Assembly: GCA_944383975.1 (NCBI GenBank) | Contig: CALWRN010000068.1 | Coordinates: 5,414 to 69,413, forward strand | DNA length: 64,000 bases | From: an uncultured Clostridia bacterium | GTDB lineage: Bacteria; Bacillota; Clostridia; Christensenellales; UBA1242 | Reading direction: 5' to 3' | Shown here: in pieces, positions 11,041 to 54,307 of the stretch | How positions within the stretch are numbered: position 1 is the stretch's first letter | Layout of the letters: each line of letters opens with the position of its first letter | Notes under the pieces: generated by a model | The model's database searches: none | Seen by the model: the letters and a program-made list of their open reading frames with translations, nothing else | Told to the model about the DNA's origin: nothing | Translations under genes and position numbers: made by a program

Positions 11041-12216
11041 ATGGGAAGAAAGGTTTATCTTGATAATGCAGCCACAACATATGTTTCAAGTGAAGTTCTT
11101 GCAGAGATGTTGCCATGCTTTAATGCAATCTATGGTAACAGCAATTCACTTCATAGTTTTGGACGTGAAGCAAGTGCTATTGTTGACAGAGCAAGAGATA
11201 GAATTGCTCATGCAATAAATGCAGCAAAATCAAATGAGATTTATTTTACTTCAGGTGGAACTGAGGCAGATAACTGGGCAATAAAAGGACTTGCTCATGC
11301 TTATTCAAATAAAGGAAAACACATTATTACAAGTCAAATTGAACATCATGCTGTTTTAGATGCTTGTAAACAACTTGAGGAAGAGGGGTATGAAGTTACA
11401 TATCTTCCAGTTGATAAAACTGGTCTTGTAAATATCGTAGATCTTATTCACTCAATAAGAAAAGACACAACATTGATTTCAATAATGGCAGTTAATAACG
11501 AAGTTGGAACAATTCAAAATATTAAAGCTATTGCAAAAATAGCACATGATTATGGTATTATATTCCATACAGATGCAGTTCAAGCAGTCGGAGCAATTCG
11601 TCTTGATGTTCAGGATATGGAAATTGATGCAATGACTTTATCAGCACATAAAATCTTTGGACCAAAGGGTGTTGGATGTTTATATCTTAAAAACGGTATC
11701 AGAATTGAAAGTCTTATTGTTGGTGGAAGCCAAGAGAGAGCAAAACGTGGTGGAACTTTAAATGTTCCTGCTATTGCTGGTTTTGGAAAGGCGGTTGAAA
11801 TTGCTGTTCGTGACATAGTAATCAATCAACAAAAATTGAGAAGCATAAGAGATTATTTCTTAAGAAGTGTTAATGAAAAAATTGAATATGTTCACTTAAA
11901 TGGTCACCCTCAACAAAAAGTTAATGGAATTGTAAACTTATCTTTTGAAATGGTTGACAAGGAATCACTTTTAATGCTTTTAGATATGGATGGAGTTGCT
12001 GTTTCAACAGGTTCTGCATGTACTTCTAATTCAGTTGAGCCATCACATGTTCTTAAGGCAATGGGAATTGAAGATGTTCTTGCAAATGGTTCAATAAGAT
12101 TCTCATTTAGCAAAAATATTTCTAAGAGTGATATAGATTATGTTGTTGAAGTTCTTGAAAAAGATGTAGCAAAATTAAGATCAATTTCAGCATTGACTAA
12201 AGCAGGGAGGAAATAA
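11041..12216 (+). CDS. nifS: Cysteine desulfurase (NifS/IscS class I)
   Basis: YLDNAATT, GGTEADN, PLP lysine SAHKIFGPKGVG, and catalytic loop STGSACTSNSVEPSHVL. Confidence 0.93.
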   Translation: MGRKVYLDNAATTYVSSEVLAEMLPCFNAIYGNSNSLHSFGREASAIVDRARDRIAHAINAAKSNEIYFTSGGTEADNWAIKGLAHAYSNKGKHIITSQIEHHAVLDACKQLEEEGYEVTYLPVDKTGLVNIVDLIHSIRKDTTLISIMAVNNEVGTIQNIKAIAKIAHDYGIIFHTDAVQAVGAIRLDVQDMEIDAMTLSAHKIFGPKGVGCLYLKNGIRIESLIVGGSQERAKRGGTLNVPAIAGFGKAVEIAVRDIVINQQKLRSIRDYFLRSVNEKIEYVHLNGHPQQKVNGIVNLSFEMVDKESLLMLLDMDGVAVSTGSACTSNSVEPSHVLKAMGIEDVLANGSIRFSFSKNISKSDIDYVVEVLEKDVAKLRSISALTKAGRK

Positions 12217-12218
12217 TT

Positions 12219-12617
12219 ATGTATAATGGTTTAATATTAGAAAGATTTCAAAATCCTAGATTTGCTGGTGGTCTTCGTGGTGCAAACGGAACAGGAAAGG
12301 TTGGCAATGACGAGTGCGGAGATGTTGTAAAGATTTACATATTGGTTGACGATGCAGGAATAATTACAAATGCAAAATTCAAAGCTTATGGTGGTGTATG
12401 CACAATAGTTGCTTGCGATATTGCATGTGAGCTTTTAATTGGCAAAACACTGGAAGATGCTTTAAGAATTTCAAATAATGATATACTTGAAGAAATGAGA
12501 AGTGTTCCTGATTCAAAGGAATATACTGCGTCACTTGCTGAGGAAGCAATAAAAAACGCAGTTGAAGATTATTATAAGAGAAAAGAAAGAGAAGAAAGAA
12601 AACAACAAGAAAATTAA
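12219..12617 (+). CDS. nifU: NifU/IscU-like Fe-S scaffold (atypical Cys pattern)
   Basis: FQNPRFAG..ANGTGKVGNDECGDVVKIY and SLAEEAIKNAVEDYY match the IscU N-domain, and the gene is coupled to nifS. The second and third canonical Cys positions are altered (see findings). Confidence 0.8.
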   Translation: MYNGLILERFQNPRFAGGLRGANGTGKVGNDECGDVVKIYILVDDAGIITNAKFKAYGGVCTIVACDIACELLIGKTLEDALRISNNDILEEMRSVPDSKEYTASLAEEAIKNAVEDYYKRKEREERKQQEN

Positions 12618-14349: not shown

Positions 14350-14630
14350 AAAATTTCAAGGCTGGGCATCTTATATTGATAAAAACTCCCTAACTGCCTC
14401 ATTTATATTTCGCTCCACCAAAGCTTCCTCATGGCACACCAAAGTGTCCTCTTAATGATGCTACCGTCAGGTCCTGACATGATTCAAGGATTTTGATTGC
14501 ATAAGACCTTAATTTCATCACGGAATACAAATGCACATATTTAAAAAGTTTAAACCGCTATAAGCATTCAACCCCACTGTAGCGGATTGTGGGTAACAGA
14601 GCACCGCTAACTCTCCATCTAGCCCAGCAG
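14350..14630 (-). ncRNA. ffs: Signal recognition particle RNA, long Bacillus-type (scRNA/ffs)
   Basis: The minus strand reads ...GTCAGGACCTGACGGTAGCA..., the domain IV pattern (compare the canonical GUCAGGUCCGGAAGGAAGCAGC). The 5' GCTGGGC pairs with the 3' GCCCAGC as a closing helix. Length is about 275 nt, with its own promoter and terminator and no ORF. Confidence 0.8.
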
Positions 14631-44488: not shown

Positions 44489-44889
44489 GGGGGCGTTACT
44501 GGTTTCGACGGGGAGCATTGGTCAAAATGTAAAGCATGTGGTGTGCCCGCACCTTAACTAAGGCATTTGCAAATAAACGCAAACGAAAACAAAGTTGTTC
44601 GTATGGACAATGCAAGCTTAGCTTACGCTGCCTAACCGAACAAAAACAATTTGGTTAAACTAATTTAACCTGCTCTTGTTGCAATCTCGCTAAGTTGCTT
44701 TAAGGGTATCAGACAAATAGCGCTCTGCATTCACAAATTTGTCTTTATAGTGTTTGTAAAAATTAAAAGGCTGGCTAATAAAAGTTGTTTATGGCTTAAT
44801 TATTAGTGAGAAATAAGTATAAACTAAACATGTAGAAAAGTTTTGAACAAGTTTTTCGGAAGTGGGTTCAAATCCCACCGTCTCCACCA
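44489..44889 (+). ncRNA. ssrA: tmRNA (ssrA)
   Basis: The 5' GGGGGCG pairs with the 3' CGTCTCC-A-CCA (G3-U70 alanine identity). The T-arm-like GGGTTCAAATCCC is present. The tag ORF GCA AAC GAA AAC AAA GTT GTT CGT ATG GAC AAT GCA AGC TTA GCT TAC GCT GCC TAA encodes ANENKVVRMDNASLAYAA. It starts 12 nt after smpB. Confidence 0.93.
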
Positions 44890-46289: not shown

Positions 46290-47609
46290 ATGGGAAGAAT
46301 AGTAGAAGAGGATAGCAGTTCTTTAAAAGCCAAGGTGTTAAGTTTTCTAAGCCATCGTAATAAAAATGGGAAAAGATTTATAGAGTCAACACGCTGGGAG
46401 AACCCAGATTATGGCTGTCAGTTTGTTGATGATTCAGCATATATTTATTGTTTAGTTTCTCCTAAAGAGCCTATATCTATGCCAAGAGAAGAGGTTAAAG
46501 GAAGATTTACTGCAAGGGAAGGAAGAGCAAGCAAGGATTTAAACTTAAAATTTTATAGGCATGGTAAAGATGAAAAAAATTTATATGTAGAATGTTATTT
46601 GACAAATCCTCAAGATGAAGATTCACCCCATATTATAAAAGAAATTTATTCTTTTGTTTCAATTATGGTAACAGACAATGCAGATGAAATTGTTCAATTA
46701 CAAAGATATGATATAAGTGGAAGAATACACGAAAATAGGATAATAAACGATTTAATACAAAATGATTCAATTTCAGAAGAAGAAAGCTCTTTAATTAATC
46801 AATATTTTGGGCAAAAAGTGGACTTCCCTCATTTTCATTTTACGAGTGTAACATATCAAGATAAGTTGTCAATCAGTTTGAATAATTTAATACATTACAT
46901 ATTAGATTTAATGGACGCTGATGAAAAAAGTGATATAAATAAGTATTCTTTAGGTTTACCATTTTTGAAAATTAAGCAAATGAGCAAACATTCTTCAATA
47001 GATATGAGAAATTTCGTAAATGATGTACATGAAAAATTAAATAATTTAGCAAGCAAATATAGTGGAAATGTTGAAAAAAGTATAATTCATAAGATTAATA
47101 GGATTATTAATTCACTTAATTTGACAAATCTAACCGGAAGCTCTATTGAACAATGTCTTGTTAAACTGGTAATTTTAAAAATATTAAGCGACACAACAGG
47201 TGATGCAAAAGCGTTTGATAGCTTGTTTAATAGTTCTAATGGAGGTCCATCAGGTGGTGGAGGCTCATCTAGCGGAAGTTCATCTGGCGGAGATGATAAA
47301 GATCATTCAAGCGAAAGCAGCTCAGGAGATGGCGATAATAGTGATAAATTTTCAATTAAAAGTTTTGTTGATGAATTGTATTATTTGCAAATGGAGATTG
47401 CAAATGAACTGTTAAGTGGTTTAGACTTTGAAAAAACTTTGGATTATGATACAAATTCTAAAAAGAACAAGAATACAAATGATAATGGTCAACATAAAGA
47501 CGATACAAAATCTTCAAAAAATAATAAAGACAAAAAACATAATGATAACAAAGAAAAAACTAAAGACAAAGAGAATATAAATGATAACGATAATGGCAGG
47601 GAGTTGTAA
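46290..47609 (+). CDS. Uncharacterised large protein with the PHFHF core (cassette copy 2)
   Basis: 439 aa with RBS AAGAGGAAG. The core LQRYDISGRIHENR..FGQKVDFPHFHF (PHFHF at 46827-46841) and LGLPFLKIK are shared with the ORF at 25850. It also has a Gly/Ser-rich linker and a Lys/Asn/Asp-rich tail. Confidence 0.75.
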   Translation: MGRIVEEDSSSLKAKVLSFLSHRNKNGKRFIESTRWENPDYGCQFVDDSAYIYCLVSPKEPISMPREEVKGRFTAREGRASKDLNLKFYRHGKDEKNLYVECYLTNPQDEDSPHIIKEIYSFVSIMVTDNADEIVQLQRYDISGRIHENRIINDLIQNDSISEEESSLINQYFGQKVDFPHFHFTSVTYQDKLSISLNNLIHYILDLMDADEKSDINKYSLGLPFLKIKQMSKHSSIDMRNFVNDVHEKLNNLASKYSGNVEKSIIHKINRIINSLNLTNLTGSSIEQCLVKLVILKILSDTTGDAKAFDSLFNSSNGGPSGGGGSSSGSSSGGDDKDHSSESSSGDGDNSDKFSIKSFVDELYYLQMEIANELLSGLDFEKTLDYDTNSKKNKNTNDNGQHKDDTKSSKNNKDKKHNDNKEKTKDKENINDNDNGREL

Positions 47610-47959
47610 TGTTAGAAATTGATAAATTGAAAAATGTTTTTATTAAAAACAATGTTTCTTTTTCGGAAGATGAAAATGAATTGGTTTTAGAATATCCTTA
47701 TTTAATTGCTGATAAAACTAACTTGGTTTTAAAAATAAAAACTGCTGAAAAAATGGTTGAAATTTCAGATGATGGCGTGTTTTTGAATTTACATAACAAT
47801 ATTTCTGAAAAAAGTTTAAAAATTTTTAAAAAAAATAATATTGTAGTTTTAAATGGTGTTTTAAATTATAAATGCAAATTAGATTTGGCATATTTTGAAA
47901 TTGAAAAATTTGTTCAGTCTATTACTGAAGCAGATTTGATAGAAAATGGAGATTTATAA
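47609..47959 (+). CDS. Small acidic partner protein 1, DUF1828-like (cassette copy 2)
   Basis: 116 aa with a TAATG overlap onto the upstream gene. The pattern MVEISDDGVFLNL...IVVLNGVLNYK...FEIEKFVQSI resembles DUF1828. Confidence 0.7.
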   Translation: MLEIDKLKNVFIKNNVSFSEDENELVLEYPYLIADKTNLVLKIKTAEKMVEISDDGVFLNLHNNISEKSLKIFKKNNIVVLNGVLNYKCKLDLAYFEIEKFVQSITEADLIENGDL

Positions 47960-48342
47960 TGGAAATTAAGGAATTAAAACAAAAATTAGATGATTTAGGA
48001 TTTAATGTTATAGATATACAAAATGACTATCTACAACTTTGTTTCAATGTAGGTTCAAGACTTGAAAATAGTTTGATAGGTATAATTTTTTATAAGAAAA
48101 ACGACAATATTTTCATGACAGATGACTATTTTTTTGTTGATATTTGGGCTGGCGATGATGATATTGTTAATTATGAACCTATAAAAAAGATAAAAGAATT
48201 TGCGTCTAAATATAATATTGATTTTGATTACAAGTTAGAAAAGAAATTAGATATAGAAGGTGACTTAAAAAGACAAATAGAAGATTTTTTTAAAGTTGAA
48301 ATGTATGCTGATATCGTTTTATCAGAGTGTAAAAACAAATAA
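47959..48342 (+). CDS. Small acidic partner protein 2, DUF1828-like (cassette copy 2)
   Basis: 127 aa with a TAATG overlap onto the upstream gene. The pattern NIFMTDDYFFVDI...KYNIDFDYKLEKKL...IEDFFKVEMYADIVL has the same layout as the two other small proteins. Confidence 0.7.
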   Translation: MEIKELKQKLDDLGFNVIDIQNDYLQLCFNVGSRLENSLIGIIFYKKNDNIFMTDDYFFVDIWAGDDDIVNYEPIKKIKEFASKYNIDFDYKLEKKLDIEGDLKRQIEDFFKVEMYADIVLSECKNK

Positions 48343-49047: not shown

Positions 49048-49107
49048 AATTTTATTATATTAAAAATTAGAAGAATGGTCAAATGAAATATAGTTTAATA
49101 TTAAATG

Positions 49108-49145
49108 AATAAAAAATAAAAGGGCTTCAAAAGCGAATCCCTTTT
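49108..49145 (-). terminator. Probable terminator of the NifU-like/GGGtGRT operon
   Basis: On the minus strand aaaggg...cccttt forms a hairpin followed by TTTATTTTTT. Confidence 0.45.
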
Positions 49146-49206
49146 ATAAATCTTTATTTTTATAATTTAATTTTTTGTTAATTTTATAACAAGCTTTTAT
49201 AAGCTT

Positions 49207-50193
49207 TTATTTTTTCCTAGTTTCAACTGCAACAGCAAGTGCAACAGTTGCGCCTACGATAGGGTTGTTGCCCATTCCAATAAATCCCATCATTTCAACA
49301 TGAGCAGGAACTGATGATGATCCTGCAAATTGAGCATCACAGTGCATCCTTCCCATAGTATCAGTAAGACCATAACTTGCAGGCCCACAGCCCATATTGT
49401 CAGGGTGTAGTGTTCTTCCTGTTCCGCCACCTGACGCAACAGAAAAATAGTTATGCCCATTTTCAAAACACCATTTTTTATAAATACCAGCAACAGGGTG
49501 TTGGAAACGTGTAGGGTTTGTTGAGTTGCCTGTTATTGAAACATCAACTTTTTCATGTTTCATAATTGCGACACCTTCTGGAACATCATAAGCACCATAA
49601 ACTTTCACTTTACTTCTTTCGCTATTTGAAAATTTCTTTTCTGATAGAATTTTTAATTCGCCTGCCTTGTGATCATAAGATGTGTTTACAAAAGTAAAAC
49701 CATTTATTCTTGCAATAATATATGCGGCATCTTTTCCAAGTCCATTTAATATAACATTTAAAGGGCTTTTTCTGACTTTGTTTGCAGATGTTACAATTCC
49801 GATTGCACCTTCTGCTGCAGCAAAGCTTTCGTGTCCAGCAAGGAAGCAAAAACTTTTTGTATTTTCGTTTAACAACATACTTGCAAGTCTTCCATGTCCA
49901 AGACCTATTTGTCTTTCATCGGCAACAGAACCCTTAACACAATAAGCCTGCAAGCCTTCTCCAAGTTTAAGGGCAACTTCAGTCGCTTTATTAGTGTTTG
50001 TTTTAAGTGCAATAGCAGTGCCAAGTTCATATGCTTTTACGGCATTATCAAAGCAAATAGGTTGAATTCCTTTAACAATTTCTTCAACATTAATACCTGC
50101 ATTAGTGCAAATAGCTTTTGCTTCGTCAAGATCTTTAATATTGTATTTTTTAAGTGTTTCTTCAATAGAAGTTTGTTTTGCTGTTAAATCCAT
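49207..50193 (-). CDS. GGGtGRT-family protein (uncharacterised family)
   Basis: 328 aa containing SVASGGGTGRTLHPDNMGCGPASYG, the family's name motif. Confidence 0.8.
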   Translation of the reverse strand: MDLTAKQTSIEETLKKYNIKDLDEAKAICTNAGINVEEIVKGIQPICFDNAVKAYELGTAIALKTNTNKATEVALKLGEGLQAYCVKGSVADERQIGLGHGRLASMLLNENTKSFCFLAGHESFAAAEGAIGIVTSANKVRKSPLNVILNGLGKDAAYIIARINGFTFVNTSYDHKAGELKILSEKKFSNSERSKVKVYGAYDVPEGVAIMKHEKVDVSITGNSTNPTRFQHPVAGIYKKWCFENGHNYFSVASGGGTGRTLHPDNMGCGPASYGLTDTMGRMHCDAQFAGSSSVPAHVEMMGFIGMGNNPIVGATVALAVAVETRKK

Positions 50194-50861
50194 TATTCAG
50201 CCCTCCTTGGATCAATTATTGTAGTTGCTTCATTAAATCTTCCGTAAGTTTTTGTTGCTTTTTTAATAGCCTCTTTGCTATCCATTCCTTCTCTTAATGA
50301 TTTCATTAAAGAACCAATTGCAACATACTCATAACCGATAATTTCTCCATTTTCGTCAAGAGCTTCTTTGGTGATATAGCCCTCTGCAAGATTGAGATAG
50401 CGAGTTCCTTTTCCGTCTTGAGAGTAAACTGTTCCTACATTACTTGAAAGTGTTTTTCCAAGGTCTTCAAGAGCAGAGCCTACAGCAAGACCTCCTTCAG
50501 AGAAGGCTGATTGACTTCTTCCATAAACAAGTTGAAGAAAAATTTGTTTCATGGCATCGTTGATAGCATCACAAACGAGATCTGTATTTAATGCTTCAAG
50601 AAGTGTTTTGCCTGGAAGTATTTCTGCGGCCATAGCGGCAGAGTGTGTCATACCAGAGCAACCTATAGTTTCAACGAGTGCTTCTTTAATAATTCCATTT
50701 TTGACATTCAAAGTCAATTTGCAAGCACCTTGTTGAGGAGCGCATTTTCCACAACCATGTGAAAAACCAGAAACTTGATTAATTTCTTTTAATTGAATCC
50801 ATTTTGCTTCTTCTGGAATAGGAGATGGACCAAACCCTTTGATGTTCATTGGACAACTCAT
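50193..50861 (-). CDS. NifU-N-like domain protein, partner of the GGGtGRT protein
   Basis: GFSHGCGKCAPQQGACKLTLNVKNGIIKEALVETIGCSGMTHSAAMAAEILPGKTLLEAL resembles an IscU/NifU N-domain. A C-terminal extension of about 110 aa follows. A TAATG overlap couples it to the downstream gene. Confidence 0.7.
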   Translation of the reverse strand: MSCPMNIKGFGPSPIPEEAKWIQLKEINQVSGFSHGCGKCAPQQGACKLTLNVKNGIIKEALVETIGCSGMTHSAAMAAEILPGKTLLEALNTDLVCDAINDAMKQIFLQLVYGRSQSAFSEGGLAVGSALEDLGKTLSSNVGTVYSQDGKGTRYLNLAEGYITKEALDENGEIIGYEYVAIGSLMKSLREGMDSKEAIKKATKTYGRFNEATTIIDPRRAE

Positions 50862-51063
50862 AAAATTATTCCTCCAAGAATTATTTTATATAAATTGAAG
50901 TAAAAAACAAAATAAAATAAAGATTTATTTAAAATAGTTAAATAAGTTTTAAACCTTATTTGTTTTATAGAATAAATTTAAAATAAATATAAAATTAAAA
51001 AATATATTGTTTATTAATAAATTTCTTTAAAAAATATTTTATTTTAATTTATTATTAAAAATA

Positions 51064-51361: not shown

Positions 51362-51406
51362 TTATTATAAAGACAACAAAGAGTTGAAAGGTAAAAAGGA
51401 GTGAAC

Positions 51407-52507
51407 ATGAGATTGATAAAACCTAATTTTAAAAATTCCATAGTCAATGTAAGTGCAACCATTGCTAATTTTTTAGGTGCAACAAATAATTTACCTAAGA
51501 TACGATTAATAGAGAAATATCTTAAAAGGAATTATAAAAATATTGTCTATTTATGTTTAGATGGTTTAGGAATTTATCCTATTACTCAAAACTTAAGAAA
51601 ATCATCATTTCTTTATAAAAACATAAAGAAAAAGATTACTTCTGTTTTTCCTTCAACAACTACAAACGCAACATCTTCGTTGCAAAGTGCATTATATCCT
51701 TCACAACATGGAATGTTTGGGTGGAGTTTATATTTTGAAAAGTTAAACAGATGTGTTGAGTTATATATGGGAAAAGATTATTATACTGGCGAAAAAGTTG
51801 ACATGAGCGAGATAAACAAAATTTTAGATTTTACTCCTTATGTGAATTTAGCAAAATCTGATTATAAAATTAATACTGTTTTTCCTCCATATATAAAGAG
51901 TTCGGTAAATAATTACTATTACAAGAAAAATGACGAAATGTTTGAAAAGATAATTCAAATATGCAGGGAAGACGGAAAACAATTTATTTATGCCTATAAT
52001 GGAGAGCCTGACCATACAATGCATGATTATGGTGTTACAAGCAGTGAAGCAAAAAATATTATTAATTATTTGAATGATAAAGTTCAGCAATTAATGGAAA
52101 ATAATAAAGATACATTGCTAATTATAACGCCAGACCATGGACAAACTGATATAAAAGAATATATTGAGTTGTATGATGATCAAGATTTATTAAAAACACT
52201 AAAAGTTCCAATGTATTTGGAAGCAAGGGCAGTATCTTTTCAAGTAAAAGATGGTCAAGAAGAAAAATTTTTAAATATAATGAAAAAATATAAAAAAGAT
52301 TTAAAAATTTTTAAAGTTTCAGATTTAGTTAATAAAAACTTTTTTGGACCTAAAAGTGATAAGTTATATTTACTAGGTGATTATATTGCAGTTGTTAAAA
52401 ATGATTATAAAATTGTGCTAATGGATAAAGACGCAACAAGGTTTAAAGGTCATCATACTGGTCTAACTAAAAGAGAAATGATTTTACCTCTTATTATTAT
52501 TGGTTAG
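51407..52507 (+). CDS. Alkaline-phosphatase-superfamily enzyme (nucleotide pyrophosphatase/phosphodiesterase-like)
   Basis: YLCLDGLG (metal Asp), FPSTTTNATSSL (nucleophile Thr region), EPDHTMHDYG, ITPDHGQ. The ATG at 51407 follows AAAAGGAG. Confidence 0.75.
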   Translation: MRLIKPNFKNSIVNVSATIANFLGATNNLPKIRLIEKYLKRNYKNIVYLCLDGLGIYPITQNLRKSSFLYKNIKKKITSVFPSTTTNATSSLQSALYPSQHGMFGWSLYFEKLNRCVELYMGKDYYTGEKVDMSEINKILDFTPYVNLAKSDYKINTVFPPYIKSSVNNYYYKKNDEMFEKIIQICREDGKQFIYAYNGEPDHTMHDYGVTSSEAKNIINYLNDKVQQLMENNKDTLLIITPDHGQTDIKEYIELYDDQDLLKTLKVPMYLEARAVSFQVKDGQEEKFLNIMKKYKKDLKIFKVSDLVNKNFFGPKSDKLYLLGDYIAVVKNDYKIVLMDKDATRFKGHHTGLTKREMILPLIIIG

Positions 52508-52516
52508 GGGGAAAAT

Positions 52517-53062
52517 ATGAAATATATAAATGAAAAATTGTTATTAGCATTTCCAACATTAAATGATGAGAAAGACTGGTTAAGATATATTGATGAGTTT
52601 TATGAAAGTGATCCAAAAACAACTCCTCTTAATTTTAAAATAGGCGATGATTATAGAAATTGGTTAAATATAAAGAAAAATGAAAGCAAGGGAGTAAATT
52701 TAAAAGAAGGAAGAGTTCCTTCAACTGTATATTTTTTAAAGAAAGAAAACGACGACAGAATTTTGTGACATATTTCAATTAGACATAGTATTAATACTGA
52801 ATTTCTTTCAATTGTTGGTGGGCATATTAGTTATGGTGTGCGTCCAAGTGAAAGAGAAAAAGGTTATGAAACCATTGGTTTAAAATTGGCATTAAAAGAA
52901 TGTGAAAAATTGGGAATAAAAAATATTCTTATAACTTGCAAGAGTAACAATATTGCAAGTGCAAAATGTATTGAACATAATGGTGGAAAATTGATAAATA
53001 AAATACAATTTGATGGCGAAAATTTTAATAGATATAATATTAGTTTAGAAAAGGAGACAAAA
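52517..53062 (+). pseudogene. GNAT N-acetyltransferase with an in-frame TGA (52766-52768) and no stop of its own before tyrS
   Basis: A single frame is open from 52517 to 54307 except for one TGA. The downstream part, HISIRHSINTEFLSIVGGHISYGVRPSEREKGYETIGLKLALKECEKLGIKNILITCKSNNIASAKCIEHNGGKL, is a GNAT acetyl-CoA-binding core. The upstream part ends ...DDRIL*. Confidence 0.6.
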
Positions 53063-54307
53063 ATGAAAGTAGATACAAATTTATTTAATGAATTAAAAGA
53101 AAGAGGTTTATTATATCAGTGCACAGATGAACAAGAATTAAAAACTTTATTAGAAAGTGGAAAACCTATAAGTTTATATGAAGGCACAGATCCAACAATG
53201 GATAGTTTGCATATAGGACACTGTGTTCCATACTGCATTTTAAGAAGATTTCAAAAAGCTGGACATAAAGTTTATCTTTTAATGGGTGGTGCAACTGCTT
53301 GTGTTGGTGATCCTAGTGGAAAGAGTGAAATGCGTCAATTATTATCAAAAGAAGATATTGACAAAAATATTGCAAAAATAAAAGAAACACTTTCAGTATT
53401 TTTGGATTTTGATGGAGAAAATCCTGCCGTAATTGTTAATAATGCTGATTGGTTTAAAGGATATGATTATATTGATTTTATGAGAGAAATTGGAGTTCAT
53501 TTCAATGTAAACAAAATGTTGTCAAGCGAAATATATGACAATAGATTAAAAGAAGGCGGACTTACTTTCTTTGAAATGGGCTATATGCTTATGCAGGCAT
53601 ATGATTTTGTTCACTTAAATGAAAAATATGGTTGTTCTCTTGAATGGGGAGGTGCTGATCAATGGGGTAATATTGTTGCAGGGACCGAACTTGGAAGAAA
53701 ACTAAGTTTTATTGACAATAAAAATAGAGTTATGGTTGGGGCAACAAATCCTTTACTTCTTACTCCAGAAGGCAAGAAGATGGGAAAAACTGAAAAAGGT
53801 GCAATTTGGATTGATAAAGACAAAATATCTGCTTATGATTTTTATCAAGGGGTATATCAAACTCCAGATGCTTGCGTTGAAATGATGTTTGCACTTTTCA
53901 CTGATGTTCCTATGGATAAGGTTAAAGCCTTAATTAAAGAGGACATAATCAAGGCTAAAAAAGAGTTGTGCTTTGAAATTACAAAATTTGTTAGAGGGGA
54001 AGAAGATGCAATAAAGGCACAACAAATGAGTGAAAATTTATTTACTCATGGTGGCGACGATGCTCCAGAATTTGAAGTTAGCAAAGAAAGCGTTGATAAT
54101 GGAATCAACATTTGTGATTTACTTTATATGACAAAGTTGGCATCATCAAAAAGTGAAGCAAGAAGACTTATTGAAGGCAATGCTATTACTATGAAAGGTG
54201 AAAAGGTTACAACATTTACAAAAATTGTAAGAGCTGAAGATTTTGAAAATAATTCTTTGTTGTTAAAGAAAGGCAAAAAGAGTTTTATTAAAGTAGTTAT
54301 CAAATAA
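53063..54307 (+). CDS. tyrS: Tyrosine--tRNA ligase
   Basis: SLHIGHCVP (HIGH), KKMGKTEKG (KMSKS-like), GGADQWGNI, and a C-terminal S4 domain (SKSEARRLIEGNAITMKGEKV). The ATG at 53063 lies 7 nt after AAGGAG. Confidence 0.93.
   Translation: MKVDTNLFNELKERGLLYQCTDEQELKTLLESGKPISLYEGTDPTMDSLHIGHCVPYCILRRFQKAGHKVYLLMGGATACVGDPSGKSEMRQLLSKEDIDKNIAKIKETLSVFLDFDGENPAVIVNNADWFKGYDYIDFMREIGVHFNVNKMLSSEIYDNRLKEGGLTFFEMGYMLMQAYDFVHLNEKYGCSLEWGGADQWGNIVAGTELGRKLSFIDNKNRVMVGATNPLLLTPEGKKMGKTEKGAIWIDKDKISAYDFYQGVYQTPDACVEMMFALFTDVPMDKVKALIKEDIIKAKKELCFEITKFVRGEEDAIKAQQMSENLFTHGGDDAPEFEVSKESVDNGINICDLLYMTKLASSKSEARRLIEGNAITMKGEKVTTFTKIVRAEDFENNSLLLKKGKKSFIKVVIK

What the first reader, a model, noticed from the sequence alone, without database searches (positions are those of the whole stretch)
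49207..50861. Translationally coupled NifU-like + GGGtGRT gene pair of unknown function
The downstream 328 aa protein carries the eponymous GGGTGRT motif (SVASGGGTGRTLHPDNMGCGPASYG). As far as I know this family has no assigned biochemistry.

It is coupled by a TAATG overlap, with an AAGGAGGG RBS inside the upstream gene, to a 222 aa protein. That protein's N-terminal half looks like an IscU/NifU scaffold domain (HGCGKC...GACK...IGCSGMTHSAAMAAE) and carries an extra C-terminal domain of about 110 aa.

The window therefore holds two NifU-like proteins, the other being the nifS partner at 12219. This suggests a dedicated metallocluster or sulfur-transfer role for this pair.
Basis: partly seen in the sequence, partly recalled or inferred. 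Interest (0 to 1): 0.55.

Follow-up and report, generated by a model that had tools for sequence, protein, structure and literature searches.

The report
Conserved NifU-like plus GGGtGRT gene pair
Two overlapping genes encode an IscU-shaped four-cysteine protein and a "GGGtGRT" protein that are always found together in anaerobic bacteria; other studies show the pair is very abundant and switched off when iron is scarce, yet nobody knows what it does.

Summary
On the minus strand, a 222-aa NifU-like gene (50193-50861) overlaps a 328-aa GGGtGRT gene (49207-50193) by one base (TAATG). An AAGGAGGG ribosome-binding site precedes the second start and a terminator hairpin follows the pair.

The second protein is a full-length member of Pfam PF14057 (E 1e-177). 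The first has an IscU fold in its N-terminal half. Its ligand set is changed: four invariant Cys, with the IscU first Cys and Asp not conserved.

The pairing is universal in my sample:
- 77 of 77 informative genome loci from more than 10 phyla;
- a 53%-identical outlier;
- Vibrio;
- four places reached from the NifU-like side.

No third gene is conserved nearby, and a cysteine desulfurase lies nearby in only 1 of 80 loci. Both proteins are about 75% identical across phyla. GGGtGRT has no sequence or fold match among solved structures.

In published work the pair falls 11-13-fold (B. thetaiotaomicron RNA) and 2-7-fold (C. pasteurianum protein) under iron limitation. It is very abundant in gut and rumen proteomes. 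As late as 2025 the function of the GGGtGRT protein was called unclear.

My best reading is an obligate two-subunit iron-dependent enzyme, not an Fe-S assembly scaffold. The chemistry remains unknown. It is an ordinary member of a known but uncharacterised family.

The parts
50193..50861 (-). Gene 1: 222-aa NifU-like protein (stop included). Invariant H35, C40, C47, C68 and C97.
   Evidence: ORF; Pfam and NCBIfam; conservation; profile match to IscU structures; model and Foldseek.
50523..50786 (-). IscU-fold domain of gene 1 (about residues 26-113). It carries the four invariant Cys codons at 50744-50742, 50723-50721, 50660-50658 and 50573-50571.
   Evidence: NifU_N match to residues 47-98. 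The PDB profile match covers positions 40-104 of the family profile. Foldseek matches ISCU with probability 1.0.
50196..50450 (-). C-terminal domain of gene 1 (about residues 138-222). It is an alpha+beta domain with no Cys and no family assignment.
   Evidence: Secondary structure. The only matches are weak: TSCPD at E 0.018 and the small C-terminal domain of lipoate-protein ligase, 3r07_C, TM 0.56 relative to the target over 63 columns. hhalign of the N-terminal against the C-terminal domain is not significant.
49207..50193 (-). Gene 2: 328-aa GGGtGRT protein (stop included).
   Evidence: ORF; PF14057 at E 1e-177; model with pLDDT 79 and pTM 0.83; no PDB match by sequence or fold.
49411..49431 (-). 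Codons for the eponymous motif GGGTGRT (residues 255-261). They lie inside the most conserved stretch, which is also the least confidently modelled (residues 253-295).
   Evidence: Sequence; invariant columns; pLDDT below 50 for residues 253-295.
50191..50195 (-). TAATG stop/start overlap: one shared base at 50193.
   Evidence: Sequence.
50201..50208 (-). Ribosome-binding site AAGGAGGG for gene 2. It lies inside gene 1, 7 nt before the ATG.
   Evidence: Sequence.
50871..50875 (-). Ribosome-binding site GGAGG for gene 1, 9 nt before the ATG.
   Evidence: Sequence.
49106..49147 (-). Terminator-like hairpin (AAAGGGAUUC...GAAGCCCUUU) followed by a U run. It lies between gene 2 and the next gene, a uracil-DNA glycosylase.
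   Evidence: Fold energy -15 kcal/mol, z -3.66 against shuffles. The consensus scan did not list it because of one mismatch in the stem. A promoter-like TTGACC-17-TATAAT for the next gene lies at 49082-49054.

Best explanation
The two genes encode the two subunits of one obligate protein complex: an abundant, iron-dependent enzyme of anaerobic and facultative bacteria.

The 222-aa subunit uses the IscU fold not as a transient assembly scaffold but to hold a permanently bound metal centre. This is most likely an all-cysteine Fe-S cluster on C40, C47, C68 and C97, with H35 nearby.

The 328-aa GGGtGRT subunit has an N-terminal helical domain and a central Rossmann-like alpha/beta domain. That domain carries a beta-GxGxxA-helix-beta-Asp fingerprint (G151, G153, A156, D174). 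After it come long, invariant, glycine-, histidine- and acid-rich loops (residues 253-300). I infer that these loops become ordered only against the partner or a ligand and form the active site.

I propose that the complex passes electrons between a nucleotide cofactor, or a second metal site, on the large subunit and the cluster on the small subunit. That would make it a redox enzyme of anaerobic core or stress metabolism.

Shown: the gene structure, the strict pairing, the fold of the small subunit's N-terminal domain, the changed ligand pattern, the absence of partner genes, and (from papers on relatives) abundance and repression by iron limitation.

Inferred: physical complex formation, the Fe-S cluster, nucleotide binding and redox chemistry. 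The substrate is unknown.
For: Pairing:
- NifU-like lies directly upstream of GGGtGRT on the same strand in 77 of 77 informative species-level genome loci from Clostridia, Bacilli, Melainabacteria, Elusimicrobia, Planctomycetes, Holophaga, Geobacter, Desulfobacteraceae, Syntrophorhabdus, Polyangiaceae and Bacteroidaceae. The other 3 loci are cut by a contig end.
- The pairing also holds in Vibrio, in Parabacteroides and in the most divergent branch at 53% identity.
- It holds when starting from the NifU-like side, in 4 of 4 places.
- No third conserved neighbour exists: the best other family occurs in 8 of 80 loci, and no Pfam family occurs in more than 4 of 135 flanking genes.

Co-evolution: median pairwise identity is 0.76 and 0.75 for the two proteins, and their distance matrices correlate at r = 0.80.

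Not a classical scaffold:
- Four Cys and H35 are invariant.
- In the alignment to ISCU the first ligand Cys corresponds to Gln44 and the Asp is deleted.
- Scores are far below every NCBIfam scaffold cut-off (28 against 188).
- A NifS-like gene lies within the flanks (up to 6 kb each side) in only 1 of 80 loci, while this genome keeps a separate nifS-nifU pair.

Interface hint: the invariant stretches of both proteins are the parts AlphaFold cannot place in the isolated chains (residues 253-295 of GGGtGRT; residues 1-25 and 114-141 of NifU-like).

Rossmann-like core: Foldseek partial matches to NADP-binding domains, for example 8deb_B with 143 columns at 3.6 A. The fingerprint residues are invariant.

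Physiology of relatives:
- B. thetaiotaomicron BT0173-74 falls 11 to 12.8-fold in iron deficiency (PMC10434189).
- C. pasteurianum F502_05012 is 7.1-fold and the adjacent F502_05017 is 2.4 to 3.7-fold higher with excess iron. PFOR, hydrogenase, aconitase and rubrerythrin move the same way; flavodoxin moves the opposite way (PMC5395762).
- The proteins are highly expressed in vivo in several phyla (PMC11204068).
- 'Nitrogen-fixing protein NifU' makes up 1.5-1.7% of rumen metaproteome signal, in the range of the glycolytic enzymes listed alongside it (PMC6043501). That this entry is the GGGtGRT partner is inferred from the annotation name only.
Against: - No experiment shows a complex, a metal or a cofactor.
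- The four Cys could bind zinc, as in SufU and many IscU crystals, or form disulfides.
- The GxGxxA-Asp fingerprint is short, the domain topology is not a textbook Rossmann fold, and the best Foldseek TM-score is only 0.27.
- GGGtGRT has no invariant Cys and no recognisable flavin motif, so how two-electron and one-electron chemistry would be coupled is unclear.
- Repression under iron limitation also fits an iron or cluster store.
- B. thetaiotaomicron transposon mutants grow normally on glucose and show only a 2-fold regulatory phenotype, so the enzyme is not essential for core metabolism under those conditions.
- The 80 loci are those most similar to the query out of at least 597, so rare unpaired copies could have been missed.
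Confidence: 0.5

Rival explanations
1. The pair is a dedicated Fe-S cluster assembly, delivery, repair or storage module. The NifU-like protein would build or hold a cluster, and GGGtGRT would be its nucleotide-dependent loader, chaperone or specific client. It would work with free sulfide or with the distant NifS.
For: - The IscU fold of the small protein.
- Annotation as 'iron-sulfur cluster assembly scaffold protein' by several sources.
- A glycine-rich, phosphate-loop-like motif in the partner.
- Higher expression when iron is plentiful, as for ferritin-type stores.
- Dispensable for growth in B. thetaiotaomicron.
Against: - The first ligand Cys and the Asp of IscU are not conserved, and no LPPVK-type chaperone motif is seen (and the sequence itself).
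- There is no genomic link to a cysteine desulfurase or to any other assembly gene.
- Assembly systems are usually kept or induced under iron limitation, whereas this pair drops 11-13-fold.
- The abundance is that of central enzymes.
- About 75% identity across phyla over both full lengths is unusual for a scaffold.
Confidence: 0.25
2. The pair is a sulfur-relay or thiolation system. The NifU/SufE-fold protein would carry a persulfide on one of its cysteines, as SufU, SufE and CsdE do. GGGtGRT would be an ATP-using enzyme that activates a substrate (a cofactor precursor or an RNA base) for sulfur insertion, as TcdA, ThiF or MoeB work with SufE-like partners.
For: - The SufE/NifU-type fold.
- Weak SufU matches.
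- A weak whole-chain Foldseek match of GGGtGRT to the E1-like enzyme TcdA (4d79_C, 276 columns, TM relative to the target 0.35, probability 0.63).
- Invariant Cys residues, plus a frequent extra Cys at the N-terminus.
Against: - The TcdA match is poor (rmsd 11 A).
- No desulfurase, ThiS/MoaD-like carrier or tRNA-binding domain lies nearby.
- Modification enzymes are low-abundance, whereas this pair is among the most abundant proteins.
- Strong iron regulation is not expected for a sulfur relay.
Confidence: 0.12
3. The two proteins act independently and are adjacent only through shared regulation or history.
For: No direct evidence of interaction was obtained here, and no natural fusion protein was found.
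Against: - Same order and strand in every locus across more than 10 phyla, with intergenic distances of a few to about 160 nt or an overlap.
- Correlated divergence.
- Conserved segments that are unstructured in the isolated models.
- Co-regulation at RNA and protein level in two phyla.
Confidence: 0.03

Closest known systems
Pfam PF14057 'GGGtGRT protein' with its NifU-like neighbour (B. thetaiotaomicron BT0173-BT0174; C. pasteurianum F502_05012-F502_05017)
   Same: Same two families, same order and adjacency. The large subunit is 63-81% identical and the small subunit 60-83% identical to orthologues in other phyla. These are the loci for which iron regulation, abundance and a mild regulatory phenotype were published.
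   Different: Nothing essential differs. The window copy is among the more divergent (about 68-70% identical to most others, against a family median of 76%). It lacks the 8-9-residue N-terminal extension seen in most small subunits. Its genes overlap by one base instead of being separated by a short spacer.
IscU / NifU N-terminal domain Fe-S assembly scaffolds (Pfam PF01592; TIGR01999, TIGR03419)
   Same: The three-stranded sheet plus helices fold of the N-terminal half. The second ligand Cys lies in a G-C-x-x-x-x-x-S-A context followed by the 'GKT..EAL' helix.
   Different: - The first ligand Cys aligns with Gln and the Asp is deleted.
- Two new invariant Cys (C40, C47) flank that loop.
- The His-Cys third ligand and the LPPVK segment have no aligned counterpart; an invariant C97 lies earlier.
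- There is an extra C-terminal part of about 110 aa.
- No desulfurase partner gene lies nearby.
- Scores fall far below the curated cut-offs.
SufU / SufE / CsdE sulfur-acceptor proteins and the TSCPD four-cysteine domain (same structural superfamily; superfamily membership is from my own knowledge)
   Same: The fold class. Cysteine-based metal or persulfide chemistry is possible. TSCPD is the only other Pfam family that appears at all for the small protein (E 0.018).
   Different: All matches are below threshold. SufU binds zinc through three Cys and one Asp at IscU-like positions, which are not kept here. No SufS or CsdA gene is linked.
NAD(P)-binding Rossmann domains of the saccharopine / carboxyspermidine dehydrogenase type
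   Same: They are the best, but partial, structural matches to the central domain of GGGtGRT (8h52, 8deb; probability about 1.0 for 143-172 columns). A GxGxxA...D fingerprint sits at the equivalent beta-alpha-beta unit.
   Different: Whole-chain TM is 0.27 or lower. No sequence similarity exists. The N-terminal helical domain and the C-terminal invariant loops have no counterpart. Nucleotide binding is untested.

Membership tests
Pfam PF14057 GGGtGRT | Full-length match to the family profile above the gathering score (27 bits). | tested here: met
   590.4 bits, E 1e-177, profile positions 8-325 of 327.
Pfam PF14057 GGGtGRT | The conserved GGGTGRT motif. | tested here: met
   Residues 255-261, invariant in 119 sequences and in the 53%-identical outlier.
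GGGtGRT / NifU-like two-gene module (as in BT0173-BT0174) | A NifU-like gene of about 220-230 aa lies immediately upstream on the same strand. | tested here: met
   One-base overlap in the window. The same arrangement is found in 77 of 77 informative loci and.
IscU/NifU_N scaffold (PF01592; TIGR01999 / TIGR03419) | Profile match above the curated cut-off. | tested here: inconclusive
   Pfam gives 21.2 bits against 22 for the whole protein, and 22.3 bits for the N-terminal half alone, with only profile positions 38-93 of 127 matched. NCBIfam equivalogs give 28, 21 and 19 bits against cut-offs of 188, 192 and 92.5, so those are not met.
IscU/NifU_N scaffold | Three ligand Cys at the canonical positions plus the conserved Asp after the first Cys. 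| tested here: not met
   The alignment to ISCU puts Gln44 at the first Cys and deletes the Asp. The second Cys (C68) is kept. The third (His-Cys) lies outside the aligned region. The family instead has invariant C40, C47, C68 and C97.
IscU/NifU_N scaffold | IscU three-dimensional fold. | tested here: met
   Foldseek probability 1.0, TM relative to ISCU about 0.5, about 100 columns at 2.8-5 A. The model has only moderate confidence, pLDDT 62.6.
IscU/NifU_N scaffold | Genomic partnership with a cysteine desulfurase (nifS, iscS or sufS). | tested here: not met
   A NifS-like ORF lies in the flanks of 1 of 80 loci. In the window, nifS is 37 kb away and has its own nifU.
IscU/NifU_N scaffold | Assembles and transfers a labile Fe-S cluster. 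| not testable with these tools
   This needs reconstitution and transfer assays.
NAD(P)/FAD-binding Rossmann-fold oxidoreductases | A beta-alpha-beta unit with a glycine-rich loop and an acidic residue at the end of the second strand. | tested here: inconclusive
   The model has E146-152, H154-164 and E167-174, with invariant G151, G153, A156 and D174. There are partial Foldseek matches to NADP-binding domains. No sequence-profile support exists.
NAD(P)/FAD-binding Rossmann-fold oxidoreductases | Binds a dinucleotide cofactor. | not testable with these tools
   This needs binding assays or a structure.
Anti-phage defence systems (PADLOC) | Match to any defence-protein model. | tested here: not met
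   No families matched either protein.

The most novel reading that the evidence does not exclude
The pair is a so far unrecognised, near-universal enzyme of anaerobes. A subunit with no match among solved structures (GGGtGRT) would work with an IscU-fold protein that evolution has turned from a transient assembly scaffold into a permanent cluster-bearing catalytic or electron-transfer subunit. It would carry out an abundant, iron-dependent reaction, for example a missing redox link in ferredoxin-, rubrerythrin- or glycolysis-connected metabolism, for which no enzyme family is currently assigned.
Probability: 0.35. Interest if true: 0.8.

Novelty: new member of a known kind. Interest (0 to 1): 0.55.

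Why it matters
Few protein pairs are this conserved (about 75% identity between phyla), this widespread (relatives in at least 597 of the species-level genomes scanned) and this abundant in gut and rumen proteomes while having no known function.

The pair responds strongly to iron in Bacteroides and Clostridium. It also turned up in a genetic screen for glucose-dependent regulation in a major human gut commensal.

Knowing its reaction would fill a gap in metabolic models of gut, rumen and sediment anaerobes. It would also explain a sizeable iron sink in these cells. If the small subunit really holds a permanent cluster, it would add a new use of the IscU fold.

The window copy itself adds nothing beyond another ordinary member. 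Its value is as a pointer to a good experimental target.

Tried and rejected
**Remote homology of GGGtGRT**
- phmmer and a family profile against all PDB sequences found nothing relevant.
- Pfam on three fragments at E up to 10 found only PF14057. NCBIfam found nothing.
- A local hmmsearch against about 1300 ORFs of the window and loci found nothing.
- Foldseek against PDB gave only partial Rossmann-type matches, TM 0.27 or lower.

**Motif resemblances recalled from memory.** I considered FtsZ/tubulin GGGTGxG, MogA GGTG, DhaK GGGSGHEP, and HypD GFETT and PxHVS. None of these families appeared in the Pfam or Foldseek results, so I dropped them.

**Natural fusions as a clue.** The long 'fusion' hits are chimeric or internally duplicated sequences, most likely metagenome-assembly artefacts.

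**Gene context**
- Clustering of all flanking ORFs and Pfam on 135 immediate neighbours gave no recurrent partner.
- Redox-type neighbours in Parabacteroides (TlpA, OsmC, nitroreductase) are not general.
- Phosphomutase-type neighbours in L084 and the alkaline-phosphatase-type neighbour in the window do not recur.

**Regulation.** No riboswitch or other Rfam family lies near the pair. Upstream regions of 76 loci show no enrichment of Rex, Fur, PerR, FNR/CRP or IscR-like sites.

**Internal duplication of the small protein.** hhalign of the N-terminal against the C-terminal domain is not significant.

**Mobile or defence origin.** There are no PADLOC hits. The plasmid hits are large non-mobilizable replicons, up to 1.8 Mb, or chromosome fragments. 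The 'phage' hits are unannotated faecal metagenome contigs.
Full report
**What is in the window**

Two ORFs lie on the minus strand: 50193..50861 (222 aa) and 49207..50193 (328 aa). The stop codon of the first (TAA, 50195-50193) shares base 50193 with the start codon of the second, giving TAATG. AAGGAGGG (50208-50201) lies 7 nt before that start, inside the first gene. A GGAGG lies 9 nt before the first start.

Downstream of the second gene there is a hairpin followed by a U run (49147-49106; -15 kcal/mol, z -3.66). After it comes a promoter-like site for the next gene, a uracil-DNA glycosylase. The upstream neighbour is divergently transcribed and encodes an alkaline-phosphatase-superfamily protein. 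The pair therefore looks like a self-contained two-gene transcription unit. No known RNA family lies near it.

**Identity of the large protein**

It matches Pfam PF14057 (GGGtGRT) over its whole length (E 1e-177), and the motif is residues 255-261. NCBIfam has no model for it.

No solved structure is related by sequence, either with the single protein or with a family profile.

In an exhaustive search of 1.84 billion cluster representatives the family collapses almost entirely into one 50%-identity cluster. Apart from chimeric and frameshifted sequences, the only full-length representatives listed among the top 150 are 69% and 53% identical to the window protein.

The invariant positions contain no cysteine. 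They include five histidines (H100, H121, H263, H284, H298) and several acidic and basic residues.

An AlphaFold2 model (pLDDT 79, pTM 0.83) shows three parts:
- an N-terminal helical domain;
- a central alpha/beta domain;
- C-terminal helices.

The most conserved stretch (residues 253-295, from GGGTGRT to FAGSSS) is modelled with pLDDT below 50.

Foldseek against the PDB finds no whole-chain match (TM 0.27 or lower). It finds only partial superpositions of the central domain on NADP-binding and other Rossmann-like domains. The unit strand 146-152 / helix 154-164 / strand 167-174 carries invariant G151-x-G153-x-x-A156 and D174. This is the pattern of a dinucleotide-binding fold. I treat it as a lead, not a result.

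**Identity of the small protein**

Pfam NifU_N is borderline (21.2 bits against a cut-off of 22 for the whole protein; 22.3 bits for the N-terminal half). The NCBIfam scaffold models are missed by a wide margin.

A profile of 18 diverse orthologues matches solved IscU/ISCU chains at E 4e-5 to 3e-4. The AlphaFold2 model (pLDDT 62.6) matches ISCU with Foldseek probability 1.0 over about 100 residues. The IscU fold of the N-terminal half is therefore real.

The ligand pattern is not that of IscU:
- In the alignment to human ISCU the first ligand cysteine corresponds to Gln44, and the following aspartate is absent.
- Invariant cysteines lie on either side of that loop (C40, C47).
- The second IscU cysteine is kept (C68).
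- A fourth invariant cysteine (C97) lies before the point where IscU has its LPPVK-His-Cys segment. That segment has no counterpart here.
- H35 is invariant, and a fifth cysteine near the N-terminus is frequent.

From what is established for IscU, the aspartate keeps the cluster labile. An all-cysteine site without it points to a stably bound centre. Zinc or disulfide chemistry cannot be excluded.

The C-terminal 85 residues form an alpha+beta domain with only weak similarities: TSCPD at E 0.018, and the small C-terminal domain of lipoate-protein ligase. No detectable sequence duplication links it to the N-terminal domain.

As in the large protein, invariant segments (residues 11-21 and 113-136) are the parts modelled worst.

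**Co-conservation**

A pattern scan of one genome per species found at least 597 genomes with a relative, and the 80 best were kept. They come from Clostridia, Bacilli, Melainabacteria, Elusimicrobia, Planctomycetes, Acidobacteria (Holophaga), Geobacter, Desulfobacteraceae, Syntrophorhabdus, Polyangiaceae, other Pseudomonadota and Bacteroidaceae.

- In all 77 loci with enough upstream sequence, the NifU-like gene lies directly upstream on the same strand. The other three loci are cut by a contig end.
- The same holds in Vibrio and in Parabacteroides, where a 63-aa ORF is annotated between the two genes.
- It holds in the 53%-identical outlier, with an 11-nt overlap.
- It holds when starting from NifU-like proteins of Clostridium tertium and Vallitalea.

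Nothing else is conserved around the pair. The next most frequent flanking family occurs in 8 of 80 loci. No Pfam family occurs in more than 4 of 135 immediate neighbours. A NifS-like gene occurs in the flanks of 1 of 80 loci.

Across 75 paired orthologues the median identity is 0.76 for the large protein and 0.75 for the small one. The two distance matrices correlate at r = 0.80, and identities between phyla reach 0.85. This points to very strong constraint, probably combined with gene transfer among anaerobes.

The sample is biased towards sequences similar to the query, so rare exceptions cannot be excluded.

**What is published**

Thirteen papers in the searchable library use the name GGGtGRT, and none assigns a function. 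[quoted passage not shown] A 2025 study says its function remains unclear (PMC12078515).

- In B. thetaiotaomicron, BT0173-BT0174 (GGGtGRT, NifU) fall 11 to 12.8-fold in iron deficiency (PMC10434189).
- Transposon insertions in this locus leave growth on glucose unchanged. They raise the Cur-dependent Roc protein 2-fold, alongside hits in phosphofructokinase and an M16 peptidase (bioRxiv 10.64898/2026.04.10.717545).
- In C. pasteurianum the GGGtGRT protein is 7.1-fold more abundant with excess iron than under iron limitation, and the adjacent NifU-related protein is 2.4 to 3.7-fold more abundant. Pyruvate:ferredoxin oxidoreductase, hydrogenase, aconitase and rubrerythrin behave the same way; flavodoxin behaves the opposite way (PMC5395762).
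- In rumen metaproteomes 'nitrogen-fixing protein NifU' (the annotation name used for the GGGtGRT partner in Bacteroidales) accounts for 1.5-1.7% of signal, in the range of the glycolytic enzymes listed alongside it (PMC6043501). GGGtGRT proteins vary together with it (PMC7035244).

**Interpretation**

Several observations make an obligate two-subunit complex the most economical reading:
- the strict pairing;
- the translational coupling;
- the correlated divergence;
- conserved but unmodelled segments in both chains;
- co-regulation in two phyla.

For the small subunit, several observations argue against a housekeeping scaffold:
- the altered ligand set;
- the lack of any desulfurase link;
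- the presence of a separate nifS-nifU pair in the same genome;
- abundance at the level of glycolytic enzymes;
- repression under iron limitation.

These favour an iron-containing subunit of an abundant enzyme that cells give up when iron is short.

For the large subunit, the Rossmann-like core and the histidine- and acid-rich invariant loops suggest a nucleotide site, a second metal site, or both. I therefore propose a redox enzyme, with about 50% confidence in the general model. The substrate is unknown.

Rival readings are a specialised cluster assembly, delivery or storage module (about 25%), a sulfur-relay system (about 12%) and independent functions (about 3%).

**Comparison with what is known, and novelty**

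The window pair is an ordinary member of a known, annotated but uncharacterised family pair. The locus type has been named in the literature (BT0173-4). It is therefore a new member of a known kind.

This analysis adds the following:
- a quantified universality of the pairing;
- the absence of other partners;
- the exceptional conservation;
- the specific departure from the IscU ligand set;
- the lack of any solved structural relative of GGGtGRT.

The functional suggestion (metallocluster or sulfur transfer) remains possible, but in its scaffold form it is less likely than a catalytic role.

**Limits**

- All physiological evidence comes from relatives, not from this organism. Its nearest sequenced relatives are uncultured Clostridia, at 81% and 83% identity for the two proteins.

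Noticed in passing
window 12219-12617 (+), next to nifS at 11041-12216: The 'canonical' NifU next to NifS is itself atypical. It matches NifU_N over its full length (E 9e-33) but reaches only 112 bits against the 188-bit cut-off of the clostridial NifU model. Where IscU has its His-Cys third ligand the sequence reads KEYTAS, and two Cys lie close together at the second-ligand position (GGVCTIVAC).
   Followed up: partly
window 52517-53060 (+), upstream of and running into the tyrosyl-tRNA synthetase ORF at 52838-54307: The listed TyrRS ORF starts at a GTG about 100 codons before the synthetase domain (the Pfam match begins at residue 108). By eye, and untested, its first 75 or so residues and the separate 83-aa ORF at 52517-52768 look like the two halves of a small acetyltransferase-like gene split by a frameshift. 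The real TyrRS start is probably the internal Met near residue 76.
   Followed up: no
window 52838-54307; loci L003, L019 and others: A tyrosyl-tRNA synthetase gene lies within a few kb of the pair in the window and in 8 of 80 related loci. This is the most frequent neighbour. It is probably lineage synteny among Clostridia, not a functional link.
   Followed up: partly
window 46290-48342 (+): Three tightly packed genes of 439, 116 and 127 aa share a base at each stop/start junction (47609 and 47959). None has a Pfam match. The first ends in a long Gly/Ser/Asp/Lys-rich low-complexity tail.
   Followed up: no
window 44489-44889 (+) and 14362-14627 (-): A tmRNA (147 bits) and a large-type bacterial SRP RNA (164 bits). 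The large SRP RNA fits a Firmicutes-type organism.
   Followed up: no
L083 5761-5952 (Parabacteroides distasonis): A 63-aa hypothetical ORF is annotated between the NifU-like and GGGtGRT genes. TlpA-family and OsmC-family genes lie upstream and a nitroreductase downstream. The small ORF and these redox neighbours are not seen in most other loci.
   Followed up: partly
proteins P0121, P0271, P0272, P0391-P0394 (metagenome collections): The top-scoring 'longer' homologues of both proteins contain exact internal tandem duplications or unrelated N-terminal parts. They look like assembly artefacts. Because the family is so conserved, they inflate the list of 50%-identity cluster representatives.
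   Followed up: yes
L084 1581-2813 and 6978-7589: The most divergent GGGtGRT locus is flanked by an archaeal-type cofactor-independent phosphoglycerate mutase-like gene and a histidine-phosphatase (dPGM-family) gene. The window pair has an alkaline-phosphatase-superfamily neighbour (51401-52507). None of these recurs in the other 80 loci.
   Followed up: yes
L082 6278-7987 (Vibrio sp. THAF191d, 1.85-Mb replicon); plasmid-collection hits H2 and H10 (Persicobacter): The pair also occurs in the facultative marine genus Vibrio and in Persicobacter, so it is not confined to the gut, rumen and uncultured-MAG lineages of the genome scan. In Vibrio the otherwise invariant Glu300 is Ala.
   Followed up: partly
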